From a virus (Duplodnaviria; Heunggongvirae; Uroviricota; Caudoviricetes): a DNA stretch of 40,085 bases. Of this stretch, positions 7,296 through 14,329 are shown piece by piece (position 1 is the first letter of the stretch; each line of letters opens with the position of its first letter). The notes beneath the pieces are model-generated. The model worked only from the letters and a program-made list of their open reading frames with translations. It made no database searches and was not told the DNA's origin. Position numbers and translations under genes: made by a program. The stretch is taken from positions 1 through 40,085 of IMG/VR virus record IMGVR_UViG_3300015177_000009; one strand, 5' to 3'.

Positions 7296-10283
7296 ATGAG
7301 CTTAAGCGATCAGGTGGTAATGGCCACCAGCATAGAAACGCTGATCGAGCTGCTAAAAAACCTGCCCAATTACGGGCGGGTTTCGTATGTGGTGACAGCG
7401 AAGGGAGACGAGGTAAAAACAGCGTTTGATATCGTCGATGCCTCAGCTCTTTTGGTATCCAATACTCTGGACGGGAAAATTAACCCTGACTATCCCCAGG
7501 AACTTCAGCCGCGCGACCGGACCCGCGCATCCAGTCTTCTTCAGGTCAACCAGATATCCAAGGATTTGCGTCCTGCCCAGCTTACCGATTCCGGTTTATC
7601 CAGCCATGGCGCGCCGATAATTGGTGAGGACAATGCCGTTGAGTCAGGTAATGGACGGACCATGGGGATCATCAAAGCCTATCAGGACGGCAATGCGGAT
7701 CGGTATCGTGAGTACCTGATTGATCATGCGACCGAATTCGGCATACGACCTGAAAAGGTTGAATCAATGGCGGCTCCGGTACTGGTGCGCCGCCGGTTAA
7801 CTAAGGTTGACCGCGTTCAGTTTGCCAAGGACTCAAATATTTCTGATCTTCAGGAAATGGCAGCCAGTGAAAAGGCTTTTGTTGATGCCGACAGCATAAC
7901 ACTGGCGATGATGGCGCTGTTTAATCCGTCAGAAAGCGGAGATCTGCTTAGCCGCAGTAATGACGCGTTTATTCGCGGATTTATGACGCAAGTTGGTGCC
8001 ACACAGGCTGCTGGCCTTGTAACGGAAGATGGGCGACCAACACGGCAACTTGTAGACCGTATACAAAACGCGATCTTTGCCAAGGCATATAAGGATGCGC
8101 GCCTGGTAAGGATGGTTGCAGAAGAACCTGATCCGGATATGCGTAATGTTCTGACGGCGCTTAATGCGGCAGCCAATGATTTTGTCCAGATGCAGGCTTT
8201 GTCAGGAGAAGCGCATAAGCAGGCTGTGACAACTATTGTTGATGGCATTGAGACAGCGGATAGCCTCGATAAAAAGGCGCTGGCGGCATTGAAAGATGCG
8301 GTAGACCTGGTAAGGCAATCGAAGGAGTCAGGCCAGCATATTACCGATGTTATTGCTCAGGGGGATATGTTCAGCGAAACGGCCCCGGAAGTGAAAGCAC
8401 TCGCGTTGTTCATCGTCGCGAATAACCGTAGCGCGAAGCGTATGGCCACCGCCTTTAAGTTGATGGCTCAACGTATCAATGATGAGTTACAGCACCAGGG
8501 CCAGGCGCTGGGGGATATGTTTGGCGGCGGCGATGTGTCGTTACAGGATATCCTTCGCCAGGTGTCTCAGGAACTGGAAAACGAAGGCATGCAAGGGATA
8601 TCCGGCGGTCTTTTCGAGTCCGTTTCCGGCGGTAGTTACAACGGTGTTGCTCCGTATACCAGTTTGCTATTACATCGGGCATCCGGCATCAAAGACATTA
8701 TTCATCTGATCAGGCTGCTTTCCCGCACAGATCCCCAGGATGAACAGCTTGTACAAGTGCTTGCGTATTTTGTTCGAATGCCTGTTGCCGACGTGAAAAA
8801 ATGGTGCCGATTATTCGGTATCAGCAATTCGTTACTTCGCGGCTTGTTAAATCACGCATCCTCCCTTGGGCGCGATGGCTTTGACGAGATAGCGCAGGCG
8901 ATAAAAAACGGAGATATGCCACCAGCTATTGACTGGTTTTCCATTCGCCCAACCAGGGTGAAAGCATTCCTTAGCGCGGCGCATTCGGCATCACCATTGG
9001 CAGAAATGGTTCAGAGGTTGTCGCTCATATTCACAGACCATACCGCGTTGGGTGATCTGACTCTGGACGAGATGAAAGAAGCCTCCATTCAGTGGGCCGA
9101 TCAACAAAATGAGGTTAACTCAGACTTCTTGCCAGCATTCAGGAAGGCCGTTAGTAAAGCGGATGATGCCCGTGGAATTCTGAAGGCATTTAAGGCATTG
9201 CAAAGTCGTGTTAATAAACATGTCGGTGATATCGATGGGGTAACGGCGGAAGGCCGGGATATCCTTAAAGAGCACGGCATAACGCCAGAGTTTATTGATG
9301 AGATCAGGACTGATATGCAGCGTGAGGTCGTATCGTCCCTGCAAATCGTAGCCAGAGCGTTGGCAGATGCTAATCCGAAGAGTGCGGCCATTGTTAACCG
9401 GGTTATTGGTGATATTGAAGCATCGGAGGGCATGGGGGCGCTGAAACTCTTCCTTTCGCGAGCGTTTAATCCTAACGGCAATATTCTCCCTGGCATTATT
9501 GGTGAGGCTAAAAAGTATGTCAGTGAAGAAGAACTTGAGCAGCTTGACCAACTACTTAAGCGATTCTCATATAACCCGCAGATACGCTGGCAAATGAATC
9601 AGCGAAGTATGGGTTCGGTCCACGAGAAAGTGTTATCTGCCATGAACAGTGCGATCGCAAACTCATCCGTATCTGAAGAAAAAGCTCTTGAGTGGGCCGA
9701 CTCTTTTATCACAGAAGAAGTGGAAGAAGCCCGCGCTGGACAGAATGGTGGGATAGACCTGCGCAAGGAACTTGCTGATATTTATCGCCTGACTGGCGGG
9801 AAAATATCGACCTTATCAAAGGTAGTTCACCACCAGGGAAGGGCATATGCAAATCTAAATGGTGTTGTTGCTGTCAATTTGAACGATGAAAATGCAAGTG
9901 CACTGTGGCACGAGCTGGGTCATCATCTTGAGTACAGTAACCCTGGTTTGTTAGAGAAAGCCCGGTCATTCCTGAAGGCCAATGTTGAAGGGGATAAGCC
10001 ATCTTTCGTCAATATCGGTGGGCGTGGCAAGCCTGAATGGTGCTTCAGATCTCGATTGAGTAATATTTATATGGCGAAGGTATACCCGCCAGCCTCAGTA
10101 AGTAACACCGGGAAAATTCGGCAGAAATCACCGACTATTTCCAAAACGTCAGCAACGGAAGTATTCTCTATGGCTCTTCAGTTGTATCATGACAAAGAGG
10201 CCGCTGCCGCATCACTGATGAATGGTGACGGATTGCTGGAACTGTTATTAGGTGTGGCAAAGGAGCTAAATAATGCAGATTAA
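7296..10283 (+). CDS. ddrB: DdrB (Dar operon large protein)
   Basis: 995-aa ORF directly after ddrA; position and size consistent with P1 DdrB. Confidence 0.75.
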   Translation: MSLSDQVVMATSIETLIELLKNLPNYGRVSYVVTAKGDEVKTAFDIVDASALLVSNTLDGKINPDYPQELQPRDRTRASSLLQVNQISKDLRPAQLTDSGLSSHGAPIIGEDNAVESGNGRTMGIIKAYQDGNADRYREYLIDHATEFGIRPEKVESMAAPVLVRRRLTKVDRVQFAKDSNISDLQEMAASEKAFVDADSITLAMMALFNPSESGDLLSRSNDAFIRGFMTQVGATQAAGLVTEDGRPTRQLVDRIQNAIFAKAYKDARLVRMVAEEPDPDMRNVLTALNAAANDFVQMQALSGEAHKQAVTTIVDGIETADSLDKKALAALKDAVDLVRQSKESGQHITDVIAQGDMFSETAPEVKALALFIVANNRSAKRMATAFKLMAQRINDELQHQGQALGDMFGGGDVSLQDILRQVSQELENEGMQGISGGLFESVSGGSYNGVAPYTSLLLHRASGIKDIIHLIRLLSRTDPQDEQLVQVLAYFVRMPVADVKKWCRLFGISNSLLRGLLNHASSLGRDGFDEIAQAIKNGDMPPAIDWFSIRPTRVKAFLSAAHSASPLAEMVQRLSLIFTDHTALGDLTLDEMKEASIQWADQQNEVNSDFLPAFRKAVSKADDARGILKAFKALQSRVNKHVGDIDGVTAEGRDILKEHGITPEFIDEIRTDMQREVVSSLQIVARALADANPKSAAIVNRVIGDIEASEGMGALKLFLSRAFNPNGNILPGIIGEAKKYVSEEELEQLDQLLKRFSYNPQIRWQMNQRSMGSVHEKVLSAMNSAIANSSVSEEKALEWADSFITEEVEEARAGQNGGIDLRKELADIYRLTGGKISTLSKVVHHQGRAYANLNGVVAVNLNDENASALWHELGHHLEYSNPGLLEKARSFLKANVEGDKPSFVNIGGRGKPEWCFRSRLSNIYMAKVYPPASVSNTGKIRQKSPTISKTSATEVFSMALQLYHDKEAAAASLMNGDGLLELLLGVAKELNNAD

Positions 10284-10584
10284 AATCGCAGCGCCATTAG
10301 GTGGAGATGCCATTATCGAATTTGATGATAATGAAGAAGTTTCCGGGCGTTTAAGCATTATCTCCGGTGACATTACCGAGGACATGATCGCTGAAGCCAT
10401 AGCTGGGGCAAATCCCAATAGCTATATGGGATTCGTTAACACCCTTGATGCTCCCGCAAGTGATGTTCTCCGAACGCTGCATCTTTACGCTGGCTGGTTT
10501 GTTGATTGGCCAGCAGTAGATGGTGGCGATGAGGACGACGACGACGATGATTTTGGTGATCATGTAGACCAGATCGTATATTGA
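10273..10584 (+). CDS. Small protein with acidic tail (hxr position)
   Basis: 103-aa ORF overlapping the ddrB stop; C-terminus DGGDEDDDDDDFGD; followed by a terminator. Confidence 0.5.
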   Translation: MQIKIAAPLGGDAIIEFDDNEEVSGRLSIISGDITEDMIAEAIAGANPNSYMGFVNTLDAPASDVLRTLHLYAGWFVDWPAVDGGDEDDDDDDFGDHVDQIVY

Positions 10585-10587
10585 AGA

Positions 10588-10620
10588 AATCCCGCCAGTC
10601 GGCGGGATTTGTTGTTTATG
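10588..10620 (+). terminator. Intrinsic terminator ending the dar operon; also abuts the convergent kinase gene
   Basis: Perfect 9-bp stem AATCCCGCC / GGCGGGATT with loop AGTC, followed by TTGTTGTTT. Confidence 0.6.
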
Positions 10621-11920
10621 CCAGGCGGGCTATGCGTATCTTACAATCATCTAGGTGGATGCGTAGCGCTTCTAAACATGGAGTAAAGTTAGCTGAGAAT
10701 TTGTCGGACTCACAGGCCAATGCATAAAATTTTTCAGCCAATTCAAGAGATTCATCCCATATTTTTCGACTTACAAAGTCTGGTAGTGCTGTTTTTCTAA
10801 GCTCATTAGATATTGCTCCCCCAGAGCGTGGAGCAAAACCCATAGGTAACATGTCATAGGCTGGAGCAATATGATATGGGCGTCCGTGGCTACTAATAAA
10901 CGATAGGTTACCATTATGCATATCGGTATTGCCTATTAGCAAACCAAAAGACCATAGCCTTGTTGCTATAATAATCGCATCAGGATGGACGCACTTATTT
11001 TTTACCAACTCTTTAACCAGCAAGGGCCATGTTGCTCTTGCATTCCCAACAAATTCTGCATCAAGTGCACGAAGTGAGAATACACCTACCCGACCTAGTT
11101 GACCAACACGATCAAATCGGGGAATTTCCAAGAATCTCTGACCGTTATAATCAAAAACTTCTGTTTCTACCCCCAGAACTTTTAATGCGAGATGTTCAGC
11201 AAACAAGAGATCTCTCCAACGCTCACTTATAGGGGTGTCGTTAGGCGCAGAGAATTTCACTAATACATGTCCACGCTCTGTGAAAGTACAAAATTTGGGT
11301 TGTTCACCTCCAGCAGATGAACCGGGCACATCACCTTCACCAGCAGCTAAAGCTAATACAGGATATTCACTTTCACGATTAACAGGAACAGGAGGCTGCA
11401 TCTCTAAAAAATGCGTGCGTGCTTGCTCTCCAATTAACAAATTACCAACAACATCATGCCCATGCTTAAGTAAGGCTTTGATCACGTCAGTATCTGACCA
11501 TTGCTCTGGATTTGAGGGAAGGTTAAGTTCAAGAGCATATGCTGATGCATATGCTCTTCCAAGGAAGCCTTGTGGACGCATATCAAATAACCACCAAGGT
11601 AACCCATCGCTATGCCTGTTATTTTTCCCTTCCTCAACCATAACATAGCCTTCTGGCCTCACCGGAATGAGAGTACCAAGAACGCAAATACACCCCTCTT
11701 CAGTTATACGATAAATGGGGACTGATTCGAATCCTCTAAAAGAGTCTCGTAAAGCATATTGAATAGATCTTCCATTTCCGATCCTAACGATTTCATCACC
11801 AAGATCTCTTAATGCTCTAGATATCGTTGGTTGGCTAACACCTAGTCTTTCAACCAATTGTCTTGGTGTCATAGGACCTTGATTGAGCAAATTACGGATT
11901 GTTGTTGCATGTATAGCCAT
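10616..11920 (-). CDS. HipA-family Ser/Thr kinase with fused N-terminal HTH (YjjJ/HipH-like)
   Basis: N-terminal HTH (TPRQLVERLGVSQPTISRALRDLG); HipA-like motifs GEQPKF, IGNTDMHNGNLSF and APAYDM; likely start at MAIHATT (11920), listed ORF extends to 11980; GC about 42 percent, below backbone. Confidence 0.8.
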   Translation of the reverse strand: MAIHATTIRNLLNQGPMTPRQLVERLGVSQPTISRALRDLGDEIVRIGNGRSIQYALRDSFRGFESVPIYRITEEGCICVLGTLIPVRPEGYVMVEEGKNNRHSDGLPWWLFDMRPQGFLGRAYASAYALELNLPSNPEQWSDTDVIKALLKHGHDVVGNLLIGEQARTHFLEMQPPVPVNRESEYPVLALAAGEGDVPGSSAGGEQPKFCTFTERGHVLVKFSAPNDTPISERWRDLLFAEHLALKVLGVETEVFDYNGQRFLEIPRFDRVGQLGRVGVFSLRALDAEFVGNARATWPLLVKELVKNKCVHPDAIIIATRLWSFGLLIGNTDMHNGNLSFISSHGRPYHIAPAYDMLPMGFAPRSGGAISNELRKTALPDFVSRKIWDESLELAEKFYALACESDKFSANFTPCLEALRIHLDDCKIRIARLA

Positions 11921-12117
11921 AGTTTTAATTACTATTGTGAATAGATTAATGAATAGATTCATGAATGCGTACAATAGCAAGCAAAACGGGAGGTGTCACT
12001 AATTTAGGTAAGTTAAAAAGACTTCTTTAAAAGATGATGACTAGGCGCTTTAACTGCTAGCTGACATAACAATTGGCCATTTGACGTGGAGTTCCCCGCC
12101 AACTGACGGGGTTTTTA

Positions 12118-12912
12118 TTAGTCACTTTCTGTTTCTTCTGGAATGTTTTCTTGCGGTTCTGTTAATGCAGCACGACACAGGTTCCGGGCATTGGCTATAG
12201 CCACACTTTTGACTTCATCCGTCATCGTGCAGGTAATGTACTGATCGAGTTCTTCAGCACGGATGATGCTTTTGCCAATCAGAAACTGTATTTGCCAGAG
12301 CAGATCAGCATCCATAATCAGAATTTCTGCCGGGCCTTCAGGACCAGCCGGGAAGGAAACATAAGACTGTTTGCCCAGGCCGATAACTCGACAACTTGCT
12401 TCAAGAATTGCGCGATTGAGGTCTGACTTTATAACGGAAACAGGTTGATTTTCACCTGCGATTACGCCGTTGACATGGATGTGGAATGGCATGTAGCTTG
12501 AAATTCGCTCTACTTTCCATACGCCAGCAAGCGATCCTTCATGCAGCACAATGGGGGTAACCGCGAGTTTCATCTCACCATATAACTGCTGGCAGATAGC
12601 TGGATTGCTGAATACATCCAAAGGTTCACACTCAAACAGCGGCGCAATCTGTATGAGGTCCATCATGGTCATACCAGGGGTACGAGCAGTAATGAATCTG
12701 CGCATGCCAGTATCCATTGTGCGCCAGATAGCTACACCATGCTTTTTGCTCACTTCTTCAGTAAAGCCAAGGTGGCACATGATGGTTTTTTCGATAGCCA
12801 GATCAGAGATCGAAACCTTTTCGCCAGGTACACCATCATTATTGATGGTCACTTCTACACTCTGGCCATTACGCAGGCGGTATTGAATGGTTTTAGTATT
12901 TTGTGCTGTCAT
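12118..12912 (-). CDS. Hypothetical protein (isaA position in P1)
   Basis: 264-aa ORF, GC like backbone, upstream of the kinase gene and downstream of ssb; no motif recognised. Confidence 0.55.
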   Translation of the reverse strand: MTAQNTKTIQYRLRNGQSVEVTINNDGVPGEKVSISDLAIEKTIMCHLGFTEEVSKKHGVAIWRTMDTGMRRFITARTPGMTMMDLIQIAPLFECEPLDVFSNPAICQQLYGEMKLAVTPIVLHEGSLAGVWKVERISSYMPFHIHVNGVIAGENQPVSVIKSDLNRAILEASCRVIGLGKQSYVSFPAGPEGPAEILIMDADLLWQIQFLIGKSIIRAEELDQYITCTMTDEVKSVAIANARNLCRAALTEPQENIPEETESD

Positions 12913-13114
12913 AGTCTTTTCTCTGCTTAAAAACTGATGTATTGCGCCTTCAGGTTGGTTAGGAATGTTTTCCCACCAGCGAAAGCAATATCTCGGGGTG
13001 TTCTATTCGTTAAAAGCGCGTGCCATTGCCAACTTTGGCGTTTGTTTGCGAGTTCGTGCTTTTGTCGGCGTCTTGACCACCGCTTTTCTTTCAGTCGTTT
13101 TTTACTCATAAACT

Positions 13115-13603
13115 CTAAAACGGAATATCGTCGTCAAAGTCCATTGGAGGTTCGTTATTGGCGTTGCTCTGAGGTTTACCGCCACCACTGTATTGCTGGT
13201 GGTTTTGAGGTTGGTTCGATTGCCCCCAGCCATTTGAGGACTGTGAATCGTCACGGCGAGCGCCGATCATTTGCATGGTGCCGCCCTGGTTGACGATAAT
13301 TTCCGTCGTGTAACGTTCTACACCGGCGTCATCTGTCCACTTACGGGTTTTAAGTTTCCCTTCGATGTAGACCTGAGAACCTTTTCGTAAATACTCACTC
13401 GCAATTTCAGCAAGTTTCCCGAACAAAACGACTCTATGCCATTCTGTTTGCTCTTTCTGTTGGCCCGTTTGCTTGTCGCGCCATGATTCATTTGTTGCGA
13501 TGCTTAGTCTTCCGACCGCTCCGCCATTTGGTATATACCTGATCTCCGGGTCTTGCCCCAGGGTACCAATCAGGATGACTTTGTTTACACCGCGTTGTGC
13601 CAC
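13115..13603 (-). CDS. ssb: Single-stranded DNA-binding protein
   Basis: OB-fold N-terminus, Gly/Gln-rich linker and acidic C-terminal tip DFDDDIPF. Confidence 0.92.
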
Positions 13604-13622: not shown

Positions 13623-13639
13623 AAAATGATTAGAGCAAT
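13623..13639 (-). promoter_or_regulatory. C1 repressor operator (ssb/lyz divergent region)
   Basis: AAAATGATTAGAGCAAT, matching the reverse complement of ATTGCTCTAATAAATTT at about 13 of 17 positions. Confidence 0.6.
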
Positions 13640-13771: not shown

Positions 13772-14329
13772 ATGAAGGGAAAAACAGCCGCAGGAGGCGG
13801 TGCAATTTGCGCTATCGCGGTGATGATTACCATCGTAATGGGTAATGGCAATGTGCGAACCAACCAGGCGGGGCTTGAGCTGATTGGTAACGCTGAAGGT
13901 TGCCGACGTGATCCATACATGTGCCCGGCGGGGGTATGGACTGACGGGATCGGTAATACACACGGGGTAACGCCGGGTGTGCGAAAAACAGACCAGCAAA
14001 TCGCCGCTGATTGGGAAAAGAATATCCTGATCGCTGAACGCTGTATTAATCAGCACTTCCGGGGCAAAGACATGCCCGATAATGCCTTCAGTGCAATGAC
14101 AAGCGCGGCATTCAATATGGGATGCAATAGCTTACGGACCTACTACAGCAAAGCGCGAGGCATGCGAGTAGAAACGTCCATCCACAAGTGGGCGCAGAAA
14201 GGGGAATGGGTGAATATGTGTAACCATCTCCCTGATTTCGTGAACAGTAACGGCGTGCCCCTGCGAGGTTTAAAGATTCGCCGTGAAAAAGAACGCCAGC
14301 TTTGCCTGACGGGACTGGTCAATGAATAA
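13772..14329 (+). CDS. lyz: SAR endolysin (T4-lysozyme family)
   Basis: 185 aa; N-terminal Gly/Ala-rich SAR segment GGGAICAIAVMITIVMG; E-x8-D-x5-T catalytic arrangement (NAEGCRRDPYMCPAGVWTDGIGNT). Confidence 0.9.
   Translation: MKGKTAAGGGAICAIAVMITIVMGNGNVRTNQAGLELIGNAEGCRRDPYMCPAGVWTDGIGNTHGVTPGVRKTDQQIAADWEKNILIAERCINQHFRGKDMPDNAFSAMTSAAFNMGCNSLRTYYSKARGMRVETSIHKWAQKGEWVNMCNHLPDFVNSNGVPLRGLKIRREKERQLCLTGLVNE

What the first reader, a model, noticed from the sequence alone, without database searches (positions are those of the whole stretch)
10616..12117. HipA-family kinase with fused HTH (YjjJ/HipH-like) at the position where P1 carries IS1
Between the dar operon terminator and the isaA-position gene lies a 434-aa protein with an N-terminal HTH and a HipA-like kinase core (GEQPKF P-loop-like motif, catalytic loop IGNTDMHNGNLSF, Mg-binding APAYDM). 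No separate HipB-like antitoxin gene is seen; the HTH is fused. Its GC content (about 42 percent) is below backbone. Its upstream region carries tandem GAATAGATT repeats, no obvious Shine-Dalgarno sequence, and a small + strand hairpin plus T5 (12094-12116). Single-gene HipA-like kinases on phages are plausible abortive-infection or superinfection-exclusion effectors, but their role here is untested. P1 isaB could be a remnant of such a gene disrupted by IS1, which is speculative.
Basis: partly seen in the sequence, partly recalled or inferred. Interest (0 to 1): 0.65.

Follow-up and report, generated by a model that had tools for sequence, protein, structure and literature searches.

The report
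HipH toxin kinase on P1-like plasmid
A P1-like phage-plasmid carries, in a known variable spot, an intact single-gene HipH/YjjJ-type toxin kinase with its own promoter and a conserved repeat array that probably lets the protein switch off its own gene; the family is known, but what the gene does for the phage has not been tested.

Summary
A 434-aa minus-strand ORF (10616-11920) encodes an N-terminal winged HTH fused to a HipA-type Ser/Thr kinase. No antitoxin gene is adjacent. It is a clear member of the HipH/YjjJ family: the NCBIfam equivalog scores 534 bits against a cutoff of 401, it is 35% identical and colinear with E. coli K-12 HipH, and all kinase motifs are conserved. RefSeq already names it yjjJ on about 30 P1-like plasmids.

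It sits in a 1.48-kb low-GC cargo cassette (10614-12094) in the hxr|isaA junction. Other P1-like elements have this site empty or filled with unrelated cargo. P1 IsaB is unrelated, so the "isaB remnant" idea is refuted.

The same array precedes HipH genes from K-12 to Betaproteobacteria: 58 of 80 genomic loci have the exact triplet, and all 78 triplet hits in 2.2 Mb lie there. The HTH recognition helix is equally conserved. This most likely marks self-repression.

The biological role (anti-phage defence, dormancy, or lytic takeover) is unresolved. Known kind, new member, moderate interest.

The parts
10587..10610 (+). Terminator hairpin of hxr / the dar operon (backbone). It sits 5 nt from the yjjJ stop codon and may also end the convergent yjjJ transcript.
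   Evidence: 10-bp stem followed by a T-rich tail. It is identical to the single hairpin at the empty site in phage SJ46.
10614..12094 (.). The 1,481-bp cargo cassette that is absent from the empty-site relative SJ46. It has low GC (41.6%) and is bounded by two related hairpins (20 nt, 75% identical).
   Evidence: blastn breakpoints against SJ46 fall at 10613 and 12095, with a 23-bp overlap in SJ46. Junction alignment, repeat family D2, GC.
10616..11920 (-). hipH/yjjJ-family gene: 434 aa, a winged HTH fused to a HipA-type Ser/Thr kinase (coordinates include the stop codon).
   Evidence: ORF. NCBIfam NF007297 scores 533.6 bits against a cutoff of 401. Pfam HipA_C plus HTH_5/MarR_2. 35% identity over the full length to K-12 HipH. 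Foldseek top hits are HipA structures, and ArsR/SmtB for the N-terminus. dN/dS is 0.17-0.20 between plasmid alleles.
11792..11911 (-). N-terminal winged HTH (aa 4-43). The recognition helix VSQPTISRA is at aa 28-36.
   Evidence: Pfam HTH_5 and MarR_2. SmtB/CzrA superpose at 1.5 A over about 57 residues. SQPTxSR is at least 90% conserved in 82 homologues.
11291..11323 (-). Gly-rich loop GSSAGGEQPKF (aa 200-210). Its two serines correspond to the autophosphorylated Ser200/Ser201 of K-12 HipH.
   Evidence: Invariant in alignments A3 and A4. K-12 autophosphorylation sites are from PMC9948734.
10898..10936 (-). Catalytic loop IGNTDMHNGNLSF (aa 329-341), containing D333, H335 and N338.
   Evidence: Aligns with GNEDMHLKNFSL of the solved HipT structure. 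Invariant.
10850..10867 (-). Mg-binding motif APAYDM (aa 352-357), containing D356.
   Evidence: Aligns with SPAYDL of HipT. Invariant.
11971..11999 (-). Sigma-70-like promoter of the cassette: -35 GTGACA (11999-11994), 17-nt spacer, TG-extended -10 TATTGT (11976-11971).
   Evidence: This is the only promoter-like site on this strand upstream of the gene. Homologues carry a GTGAC-type -35 and a TAnnnT -10 at the same place. Prediction only.
11938..11966 (-). HipH-box array: three ATTCA boxes at 12-nt spacing (11966-11962, 11954-11950, 11942-11938), between the -10 element and the ATG. Candidate operator for the protein's own HTH.
   Evidence: The exact triplet occurs in 58 of 80 homologue loci, and at least two copies in 71 of 80. 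All 78 triplet hits in 2.2 Mb lie upstream of hipH, against 0.0004 expected, and this is the only hit in the window. The cores are unchanged between plasmid alleles while the spacers vary.
12094..12116 (+). Plus-strand hairpin CCCCG-N8-CGGGG plus T5 at the right edge of the cassette. It matches the single hxr terminator hairpin of the empty site and is not a terminator on the minus strand.
   Evidence: It aligns with the same SJ46 hairpin as the left copy.

Best explanation
The region is a self-contained, single-gene cargo cassette in the hxr|isaA variable junction of a P1-like phage-plasmid. It encodes a HipH (YjjJ)-family protein: an ArsR/MarR-like winged HTH fused to a HipA-type Ser/Thr kinase.

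Shown:
- Family membership.
- Intact catalytic, Mg-binding and Gly-rich motifs, including the Ser-Ser autophosphorylation pair.
- No adjacent antitoxin gene.
- Purifying selection between plasmid alleles.
- An ATTCA x3 array at 12-nt spacing that is found specifically upstream of HipH genes across Proteobacteria.

Inferred mechanism:
- The gene is transcribed from its own weak sigma-70 promoter.
- The protein's HTH binds the ATTCA boxes, which lie at about +1 to +30. This represses its own transcription.
- The leader has no Shine-Dalgarno sequence, which keeps translation low. The lysogen therefore holds a small, self-limited pool of kinase.
- When that control is lost, or when the gene is over-transcribed, the kinase phosphorylates host proteins and arrests growth. 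For K-12 HipH the reported substrates are ribosomal protein L31 and CsrA. Read-through from the C1-controlled ssb promoter after induction is one possible route to over-transcription.

The benefit to the element is most likely protection or competition: aborting infection by other phages, or excluding rival elements. This last step is the least supported.

Confidence by layer: identity as a HipH-family kinase about 0.95; self-repression through the ATTCA boxes about 0.6; a protective or competitive role about 0.3. The overall figure of 0.6 covers identity plus mechanism, not the role.
For: Identity:
- NCBIfam YjjJ equivalog at 533.6 bits against a cutoff of 401, aligned end to end.
- Pfam HipA_C plus an HTH.
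- 35% identical and colinear with experimentally studied K-12 HipH.
- All four kinase motifs and the Ser-Ser pair invariant.
- Foldseek hits to HipA and ArsR/SmtB structures.

Monocistronic.

Functional constraint: dN/dS of 0.17-0.20. The identical protein is listed in 1264 blocks of the collection, and the 10 places shown all have the same P1-like context.

Cassette and hotspot: and PMC9603915.

Operator:
- Invariant ATTCA boxes in the alignment that includes K-12.
- 58 of 80 loci with the exact triplet.
- 78 of 78 hits upstream of hipH, against 0.0004 expected.
- Recognition helix at least 90% conserved.
- The array travels with the gene into prophages and islands.
- Reg-Seq found two repressor sites in the K-12 yjjJ promoter (PMC7567609).
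- c-di-GMP regulation of K-12 hipH maps to its promoter, and c-di-GMP binds HipH (PMC11452175).

Kinase and toxicity of the family: PMC9948734.

Defence leaning:
- The closest non-P1 homologue lies in an integrase island with BrxR and Fic.
- Other homologues sit next to type I R-M and GmrSD genes.
- Nearest neighbours hit PADLOC models in about 15 of 144 cases, against about 4 of 115 for ORFs more than 5 kb away.
- A different HipA-family kinase system has been validated as anti-phage (PMC13092281).
Against: - No experiment exists on this allele. It is only 35% identical to the K-12 protein whose substrates are known.
- Binding of HipH to the ATTCA boxes has not been shown. The boxes lie in the transcribed leader, so an RNA-level role or a host factor is not excluded. 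Reg-Seq attributed one K-12 site to MarA.
- The promoter is a 9/12 consensus match only.
- The neighbour enrichment is weak (p about 0.05-0.13, from truncated lists). Most homologues sit among housekeeping, flagellar, fimbrial or efflux genes.
- PADLOC has no model that matches the protein beyond noise.
- The literature on K-12 HipH points to persistence and biofilm rather than phage defence, and disputes whether kinase or DNase activity is the toxic one.
- The AF2 model is of low confidence (pLDDT 63.5).
Confidence: 0.6

Rival explanations
1. Lysogenic-conversion gene that modulates host dormancy, persistence or biofilm formation, as reported for chromosomal HipH. In that model c-di-GMP induces the gene and also binds the protein as a small-molecule antitoxin, and toxicity comes from HTH-dependent DNA damage rather than from the kinase.
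For: PMC11452175 reports the following for K-12 HipH: DNase activity, c-di-GMP binding with a Kd of 7.6 uM, and regulation at the promoter. The HTH recognition helix and the operator boxes are shared with K-12. Other cargo at the same hotspot includes an OmpC-type porin, a typical conversion gene. One Pantoea homologue lies next to a GGDEF gene.
Against: The allele is only 35% identical to K-12 HipH, and no c-di-GMP site is defined that could be checked. The kinase motifs are under strict conservation, which is hard to explain if the kinase were dispensable. Kinase-dead K-12 YjjJ loses toxicity in PMC9948734, which contradicts the DNase model.
Confidence: 0.25
2. Lytic-cycle host-takeover kinase. 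The gene is transcribed mainly by read-through from the C1-repressed ssb promoter after induction. It then phosphorylates host translation or regulatory proteins to favour phage development.
For: The gene has the same orientation as ssb and isaA. A C1 operator lies at 13623-13639, upstream of ssb. No minus-strand terminator is predicted between ssb and the gene.
Against: The gene has its own promoter and operator array like its chromosomal relatives. Only about 5-6% of P1-like elements carry it, and the site is often empty, so it is not needed for lytic growth. Read-through has not been shown.
Confidence: 0.1
3. Plasmid-addiction (post-segregational killing) module that stabilises the low-copy prophage plasmid.
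For: HipBA modules on plasmids can stabilise them (title and abstract of PMC11487325). The protein is a toxin homologue on a plasmid-borne prophage.
Against: There is no separate labile antitoxin. A single polypeptide cannot easily outlive its own inhibitor. From established knowledge of P1, P1-type elements already carry phd-doc. Most P1-like plasmids lack the gene.
Confidence: 0.08
4. One reading: P1 isaB is the remnant of a HipH-like gene disrupted by IS1, so the window shows the ancestral state.
For: Only positional: isaB has the same orientation and lies between hxr and isaA.
Against: IsaB against the kinase gives BLASTP E=12. tblastn of the kinase finds nothing in any phage record, P1 included. 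There is no DNA homology between the cassette and the P1 interval. The site is empty in SJ46 and holds unrelated cargo elsewhere.
Confidence: 0.02
5. Functionless hitch-hiker: a recently acquired gene that is silent or decaying.
For: It has low GC and GC3 relative to the backbone, no Shine-Dalgarno sequence, and is present in a minority of elements.
Against: The reading frame is intact in all alleles and dN/dS is 0.17-0.20. The operator cores are conserved between alleles. The identical protein is listed in 1264 blocks of the collection. Lack of a Shine-Dalgarno sequence is a family trait, not decay.
Confidence: 0.05

Closest known systems
E. coli K-12 HipH (YjjJ, b4385), HipA-homologous kinase clade X (Gerdes et al. 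2021, PMC8262856; Gratani et al. 2022, PMC9948734)
   Same: Same architecture: an N-terminal HTH, about 100 aa of linker or N-subdomain, and a HipA-type kinase core. Both are monocistronic with no adjacent antitoxin. They share an identical Gly-rich loop GSSAGGEQPKF with the Ser-Ser pair, and the same catalytic (N-[ST]-DMH-x-GNLSF) and Mg (YDMLPM) motifs. Both have three ATTCA boxes at 12-nt spacing upstream and no Shine-Dalgarno sequence.
   Different: Identity is only 35%. The gene belongs to a separate, widespread subclade: 48-72% identity to proteins of Enterobacterales and Betaproteobacteria. It is carried on a phage-plasmid rather than between deoD and lplA. The array sits about 12 nt further from the ATG. 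Substrates are untested.
Canonical type II HipBA (E. coli HipA/HipB)
   Same: HipA-type kinase fold (Foldseek hits to 3dnv, 3fbr and 3tpe). Growth-arrest toxin logic, with an HTH that autoregulates the promoter.
   Different: There is no HipB gene; the HTH is fused in cis and is of the winged ArsR/MarR type rather than Cro-like. No Couple_hipA/HipA_N domain is detected. The operators are direct ATTCA repeats rather than the palindromes to which HipB binds in the hipBA promoter (described in PMC8262856).
HipBST (HipT kinase with HipS antitoxin)
   Same: It is the best sequence match among solved structures: HipT of Legionella, E=7.5e-6, with the catalytic and Mg motifs aligned. Both have two serines at the Gly-rich loop.
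   Different: There are no hipS or hipB genes. HipH carries the extra N-terminal HTH.
HipAD / DS-6 anti-phage system (DefensePredictor, PMC13092281)
   Same: A HipA-family kinase whose catalytic residue is needed for phage defence. This provides a precedent for a defence role.
   Different: It is a two-gene system with a DUF3037/DUF1829 partner. It is not HipH and was not compared at the sequence level here.
P1 isaB-IS1-isaA interval / variable region 2 of P1-like phage-plasmids (PMC9603915)
   Same: Same locus between hxr and isaA. It is described as low-GC and highly variable.
   Different: P1 carries isaB plus IS1 there, and neither is related to the kinase. The paper contains neither 'yjjJ' nor 'HipA'.

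Membership tests
HipH/YjjJ kinases (HipA-homologous clade X) | Curated family HMM above its trusted cutoff over the full length | tested here: met
   NCBIfam NF007297 (equivalog) scores 533.6 bits against a cutoff of 401. Residues 4-434 align with profile positions 3-446 of 446.
HipH/YjjJ kinases (HipA-homologous clade X) | N-terminal HTH domain fused to the kinase | tested here: met
   Pfam HTH_5 (29.5 bits) and MarR_2 (28.7 bits) at aa 4-43. ArsR/SmtB structures superpose on the N-terminus at 1.5 A.
HipH/YjjJ kinases (HipA-homologous clade X) | Canonical Hip kinase motifs (Gly-rich loop, catalytic motif, Mg-binding motif; the activation loop was not delimited separately) | tested here: met
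   HipA_C scores 56.9 bits. The catalytic and Mg motifs align with HipT. G200-F210, H218-F223, N331-F341 and Y355-M360 are invariant against K-12 HipH and eight relatives. The activation loop was not delimited separately.
HipH/YjjJ kinases (HipA-homologous clade X) | Two conserved serines next to the Gly-rich loop (autophosphorylation sites) | tested here: met
   S201 and S202 are invariant. They correspond to the phosphorylated Ser200/Ser201 of K-12 YjjJ.
HipH/YjjJ kinases (HipA-homologous clade X) | Monocistronic, with no adjacent antitoxin gene | tested here: met
   There are convergent and tandem neighbours only. The flanks hold no ORF above 39 aa.
HipH/YjjJ kinases (HipA-homologous clade X) | Ser/Thr kinase activity and growth inhibition on overproduction | not testable with these tools
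   Shown only for K-12 YjjJ (PMC9948734).
HipH/YjjJ kinases (HipA-homologous clade X) | Upstream array of ATTCA boxes at 12-nt spacing (a feature defined here, not in the literature) | tested here: met
   Three boxes at 11966-11938. The same array occurs in K-12 and in 58-71 of 80 homologue loci.
Canonical type II HipBA toxin-antitoxin | Upstream hipB antitoxin gene co-transcribed with hipA | tested here: not met
   There is no such ORF. The PGAP product name 'type II toxin-antitoxin system HipA family toxin' is a family label only.
HipBST | Separate hipS (N-subdomain) and hipB genes | tested here: not met
Known or candidate anti-phage defence systems (PADLOC-DB v2) | Significant match to a defence-system protein model | tested here: not met
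   Only marginal local hits: a WYL HTH at E=2e-4, and PDC-M03A over 30 residues of the catalytic loop at E=1e-3.
Defence-island resident genes | Homologues enriched next to defence genes | tested here: inconclusive
   About 15 of 144 nearest neighbours hit PADLOC models, against about 4 of 115 ORFs more than 5 kb away. Fisher p is 0.05-0.13, and the counts come from truncated lists. There are single cases with type I R-M, GmrSD, and BrxR plus Fic plus integrase.
Remnant or ancestor of P1 isaB | Detectable sequence similarity to IsaB or to the P1 isaB-IS1 interval | tested here: not met

The most novel reading that the evidence does not exclude
HipH on P1-like phage-plasmids is a one-protein immune or competition switch. 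The winged HTH sits on the ATTCA boxes, where it both shuts off its own promoter and keeps the kinase quiet. A cue from an invading phage or plasmid, or a change in c-di-GMP, releases it to phosphorylate host targets and abort the infection. The chromosomal E. coli hipH has the same boxes and nearly the same recognition helix. The plasmid copy would therefore also cross-regulate the host's own hipH, wiring the prophage into a host dormancy circuit.
Probability: 0.15. Interest if true: 0.7.

Novelty: new member of a known kind. Interest (0 to 1): 0.4.

Why it matters
HipH is an orphan toxin kinase. How it is controlled is an open question, and two recent papers disagree on whether its toxicity comes from kinase or DNase activity.

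First, a divergent but intact HipH is stable cargo of about 5% of P1-like phage-plasmids, which are themselves found in about 9% of complete E. coli genomes. This gives a natural mobile context in which to ask what the family is for.

Second, the ATTCA array is a concrete, testable operator candidate. It is conserved from K-12 to Betaproteobacteria and travels with the gene into prophages and islands. Together with the conserved recognition helix, it turns the guess that "the HTH may bind DNA" into a defined experiment. It also offers a simple explanation for the reported c-di-GMP effect at the hipH promoter.

If the gene proves to protect lysogens, it would add a single-gene kinase to the list of phage-borne defence systems.

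Tried and rejected
- isaB as a remnant: BLASTP, tblastn and blastn were all negative. Rejected.
- A hidden antitoxin or small RNA in the 198-nt upstream gap: only 21-39 aa spurious ORFs, and Rfam found nothing better than E=0.27. Rejected.
- Direct control by the P1 C1 repressor: the operator consensus matches 10 sites in the window but none near the gene. The nearest is upstream of ssb.
- DNA-level relation to the host's chromosomal hipH: blastn with 11-nt words found only the plasmid copies. The two are ancient paralogues, not a recent capture from E. coli.
- Structure prediction: the 34-sequence alignment was too shallow (67-72% identity) and the model is poor (pLDDT 63.5; the catalytic region is below 50). 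It served only for coarse fold assignment, not for domain-packing arguments.
- Other cargo proteins at the hotspot (IsaB, 356-aa, 364-aa and 95-aa proteins, and the IsaA homologue): no Pfam or PADLOC hits, and PHROGs labels the two tested (IsaA homologue, 356-aa protein) 'unknown function'. They say nothing about whether the hotspot is a defence locus.
- Defence-island enrichment: this gave a weak, borderline signal. I do not treat it as established.
- The literature searches I ran turned up no discussion of yjjJ on P1-like elements, and the HipH papers I searched do not mention a HipH operator.
Full report
**Observation.**
The window is part of a P1-like phage-plasmid. ddrB (7296-10283, +) and hxr (10273-10584, +) are followed by a minus-strand ORF at 10616-11980. 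Its ATG at 11920 gives a 434-aa product. After that come an isaA homologue (12118-12912, -), ssb (13115-13603, -) and the lysozyme gene (13772-14329, +). The annotated relatives agree with this order.

- The three motifs are present.
- The HTH is there.
- No antitoxin-like ORF lies in the 198-nt upstream gap.
- The CDS is 42.5% GC, against 48.4% for the window.
- The TGAATAGATT repeats are present.
- There is no Shine-Dalgarno sequence.
- The plus-strand hairpin plus T5 lies at 12094-12116.

**What the protein is.**
The NCBIfam equivalog for "HipA family toxin YjjJ" matches end to end at 533.6 bits, against a cutoff of 401. Pfam gives HipA_C at aa 201-363 and HTH_5/MarR_2 at aa 4-43.

The protein is 35% identical and colinear with E. 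coli K-12 HipH (b4385). In an alignment with K-12 HipH and eight closer relatives, three elements are invariant:
- the Gly-rich loop GSSAGGEQPKF;
- the catalytic loop N-[ST]-DMH-x-GNLSF;
- the Mg-binding motif YD-x-LPM.

The two serines correspond to the autophosphorylated Ser200/Ser201 of K-12 YjjJ. Among solved structures, the best sequence match is HipT, with the catalytic and Mg motifs aligned.

An AlphaFold model from a shallow alignment is poor (pLDDT 63.5). Even so, its best Foldseek hits are HipA structures. Its first ~57 residues superpose on ArsR/SmtB winged-helix repressors at 1.5 A.

This is therefore a member of the HipH family defined by Gerdes et al. (PMC8262856): monocistronic, with a fused HTH and no cognate antitoxin gene. 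It is not a HipBA or HipBST module.

**Relatives.**
The identical protein is listed in 1264 blocks of the collection. The ten places shown all have the same ssb-isaA-yjjJ-hxr-ddrB-darA context. The next relatives are only 67-72% identical. They are chromosomal proteins of Pantoea, Serratia, Gibbsiella, Enterobacter and others. The subclade extends at 48-65% identity into many Betaproteobacteria. The host's own hipH is too distant to be found at the DNA level.

**The cassette and its site.**
Phage SJ46 has hxr and isaA separated by 30 bp and one terminator hairpin. Against SJ46, homology stops at 10613 and resumes at 12095. A 23-bp piece of SJ46, the hairpin, matches both edges. The insert is therefore 10614-12094 (1,481 bp, 41.6% GC). 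It is bounded by two related hairpins (20 nt, 75% identical).

It is not a terminator on the minus strand.

The same junction holds other things in other elements:
- isaB plus IS1 in P1;
- an ISSod13 transposase in RCS47;
- unrelated 356-aa, 364-aa and 95-aa ORFs in three other phages.

In a spread sample of 509 PLSDB plasmids, the site is either empty or holds a ~1.06-kb insert, a DUF2829 gene, an OmpC-type porin, yjjJ, or larger inserts.

The interval is a published variable region of P1-like phage-plasmids (PMC9603915). That paper contains neither "yjjJ" nor "HipA".

The backbone marker is present in 478 PLSDB plasmids and 474 of 5426 complete E. coli genomes. yjjJ is present in 29 and 25 of these, about 5-6%. 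RefSeq's pipeline already labels it yjjJ. PHROGs holds it as phrog_30447, "unknown function". It is absent from the 50,697 GenBank phage records.

P1 IsaB is unrelated to it (E=12), so the "isaB remnant" idea is refuted.

**The upstream repeats are a family signature.**
On the coding strand the region reads: GTGACA (-35), 17 nt, TATTGT (-10), ACGC, ATTCATGAATCT, ATTCATTAATCT, ATTCAC, 16 nt, ATG. That is three ATTCA boxes at 12-nt spacing.

I aligned this with the upstream regions of homologues from Gibbsiella, Enterobacter and Pantoea, and of K-12 hipH itself. The three ATTCA boxes are invariant columns, while almost everything else differs.

I then fetched 80 genomic loci that encode homologues of 48-71% identity.
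- The exact pattern ATTCA-N7-ATTCA-N7-ATTCA lies just upstream of the start codon in 58 of them.
- At least two boxes at that spacing occur in 71 of them.
- The last box typically ends about 5 nt before the ATG, and a TAnAAT-like -10 lies just before the first box.
- Across 2.2 Mb (both strands of these loci) the triplet occurs 78 times, always at that place and on that strand. Base composition predicts 0.0004 occurrences.
- In the 40-kb window it occurs once, at 11966-11938.

The unit consensus is TATCT-ATTCA-T..AT.

Several further observations fit this picture:
- None of the leaders I inspected has an obvious Shine-Dalgarno sequence, so its absence here is a family trait.
- Between the two plasmid allele groups the ATTCA cores are unchanged while the spacers differ.
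- The recognition helix of the HTH (SQPTxSR) is at least 90% conserved over 82 homologues, well above the protein average of 69%. It is shared with K-12.
- The array travels with the gene into prophages and an integrase island.
- A distant clade (38-39% identity) shows ATTCG-type variants.

The simplest reading is that the boxes are the operator of HipH's own HTH, placed at about +1 to +30 so that binding blocks transcription. Three published results fit this:
- Reg-Seq found two repressor sites in the K-12 yjjJ promoter (PMC7567609).
- c-di-GMP control of K-12 hipH maps to its promoter (PMC11452175).
- c-di-GMP binds HipH (PMC11452175).

The three HipH papers I searched do not mention an operator or autoregulation for HipH. 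Binding itself is an inference. An RNA-level role of the transcribed repeats, or a host factor, is not excluded.

**Selection and expression.**
The allele groups differ by 22-25 substitutions, with dN/dS of 0.17-0.20, and the frames are intact. The gene is therefore maintained by selection.

No C1 operator lies near it; the nearest is upstream of ssb at 13623-13639. No minus-strand terminator is predicted between ssb and yjjJ. Read-through after prophage induction is therefore possible but not shown.

**What it does for the element.**
For K-12 HipH, overproduction is toxic. The protein phosphorylates L31 and CsrA and itself, and kinase-dead variants lose toxicity (PMC9948734). A later paper instead reports HTH-dependent DNase activity, with c-di-GMP acting as antitoxin (PMC11452175).

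For the plasmid allele nothing has been tested. The contextual evidence for a defence role is suggestive but weak.
- The closest non-P1 homologue lies in an integrase island with BrxR, Fic and AlpA.
- Other homologues sit beside a type I R-M system or a GmrSD-type gene.
- Still others sit among efflux, flagellar, invasin or fimbrial genes.
- Of 144 nearest-neighbour ORFs at the 80 loci, about 15 match PADLOC models at E<=1e-8. The hits are type I REase, bSEFIR/TIR, SoFic, PbeA, type IV REase, BrxA and several PDC candidates.
- The corresponding figure for ORFs more than 5 kb away is about 4 of 115.
- Fisher p is 0.05-0.13, and the counts come from truncated lists.
- PADLOC has no model for the protein itself.
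- A different HipA-family kinase system (HipAD/DS-6) has been validated as anti-phage (PMC13092281).
- HipH relatives are rare in viral contigs. There are 20 loci in IMG/VR, five of them P1-like. At least one other is embedded among lambda-type terminase, portal and tape-measure genes.

I rank the possible roles as follows. A protective or competitive role comes first. Dormancy or biofilm conversion comes second. Lytic takeover, addiction and a neutral passenger follow.

**Verdict.**
The finding is real and correctly identified. However, the family is known and the gene is already named in RefSeq. The added value here has four parts:
- the precise cassette and hotspot anatomy;
- refutation of the isaB idea;
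- evidence of purifying selection;
- the family-wide ATTCA operator-like array, which makes HipH self-regulation directly testable.

Noticed in passing
window 11938-11966 (-); L008 9720-9769; L014-L093 just upstream of each match: Three to four ATTCA boxes at 12-nt spacing lie between the -10 element and the start codon of HipH genes, from E. coli K-12 to Betaproteobacteria. All 78 exact triplets in 2.2 Mb are at that place. The HipH papers I searched do not mention an operator.
   Followed up: yes
L124-L129 (IMG/VR contigs), about 40-90 nt upstream of the match: A distant HipH clade (38-39% identity) has ATTCG-type boxes (for example ATATTCGTAACTTAATTCGT) instead of ATTCA. This may be co-variation of the operator and the HTH.
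   Followed up: no
window 10587-10610 and 12094-12116: The cassette is bracketed by two related terminator-like hairpins (20 nt, 75% identical). SJ46 has a single copy at the empty site. It is unresolved whether this reflects the insertion mechanism or cassette exchange.
   Followed up: partly
hxr|isaA junction in PLSDB plasmids, e.g. CP057283.1 36331-40568 and NZ_MN232192.1 65460-69698: Many P1-like plasmids carry an OmpC-type porin gene at or next to this junction, replacing part of the isaA region. Others carry a DUF2829 gene or a ~1.06-kb unknown ORF. The locus is a rich cargo hotspot.
   Followed up: partly
window 13623-13639 (-), and 12118-13603: A C1 operator (ATTGCTCTAATCATTTT) lies upstream of ssb. 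No minus-strand terminator is predicted between ssb, the isaA homologue and yjjJ. The kinase gene could therefore be co-transcribed after induction.
   Followed up: partly
window 11531-11558: A perfect 12-nt inverted repeat with a 4-nt spacer (AAGAGCATATGC TGAT GCATATGCTCTT) lies inside the coding region. It encodes the conserved RAYASAYAL segment and is probably a by-product of two palindromic GCATATGC codon runs.
   Followed up: no
window 11922-11938 and 11971-11987: A 17-nt inverted repeat (82% complementary) brackets the ATTCA array and overlaps the -10 element. In a read-through transcript it would fold across the leader (z=-2.5).
   Followed up: no
L131 1-11161 (Logan SRR29693975 contig): The closest non-P1 homologue (72% identity) sits in an island with a tyrosine integrase, Fic, AlpA, YagK/YfjJ and BrxR. 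This looks like a mobile defence island.
   Followed up: partly
L006 911-2005 (MH422554.1) and L004 937-2007 (ON470617.2): The 364-aa and 356-aa cargo ORFs at the same junction are unknown proteins. MH422554 annotates its ORF as 'terminase large subunit'. The 356-aa ORF of ON470617 has only a weak PHROG terminase-like hit (E=3e-9) and no Pfam match, and the 364-aa ORF also has no Pfam match, so that annotation is doubtful.
   Followed up: partly
NZ_CM148631.1 4437479-4439019: One complete E. coli genome shows the yjjJ cassette on a record labelled as a chromosome (5.18 Mb). This could be an integrated P1-like element or an assembly join.
   Followed up: no
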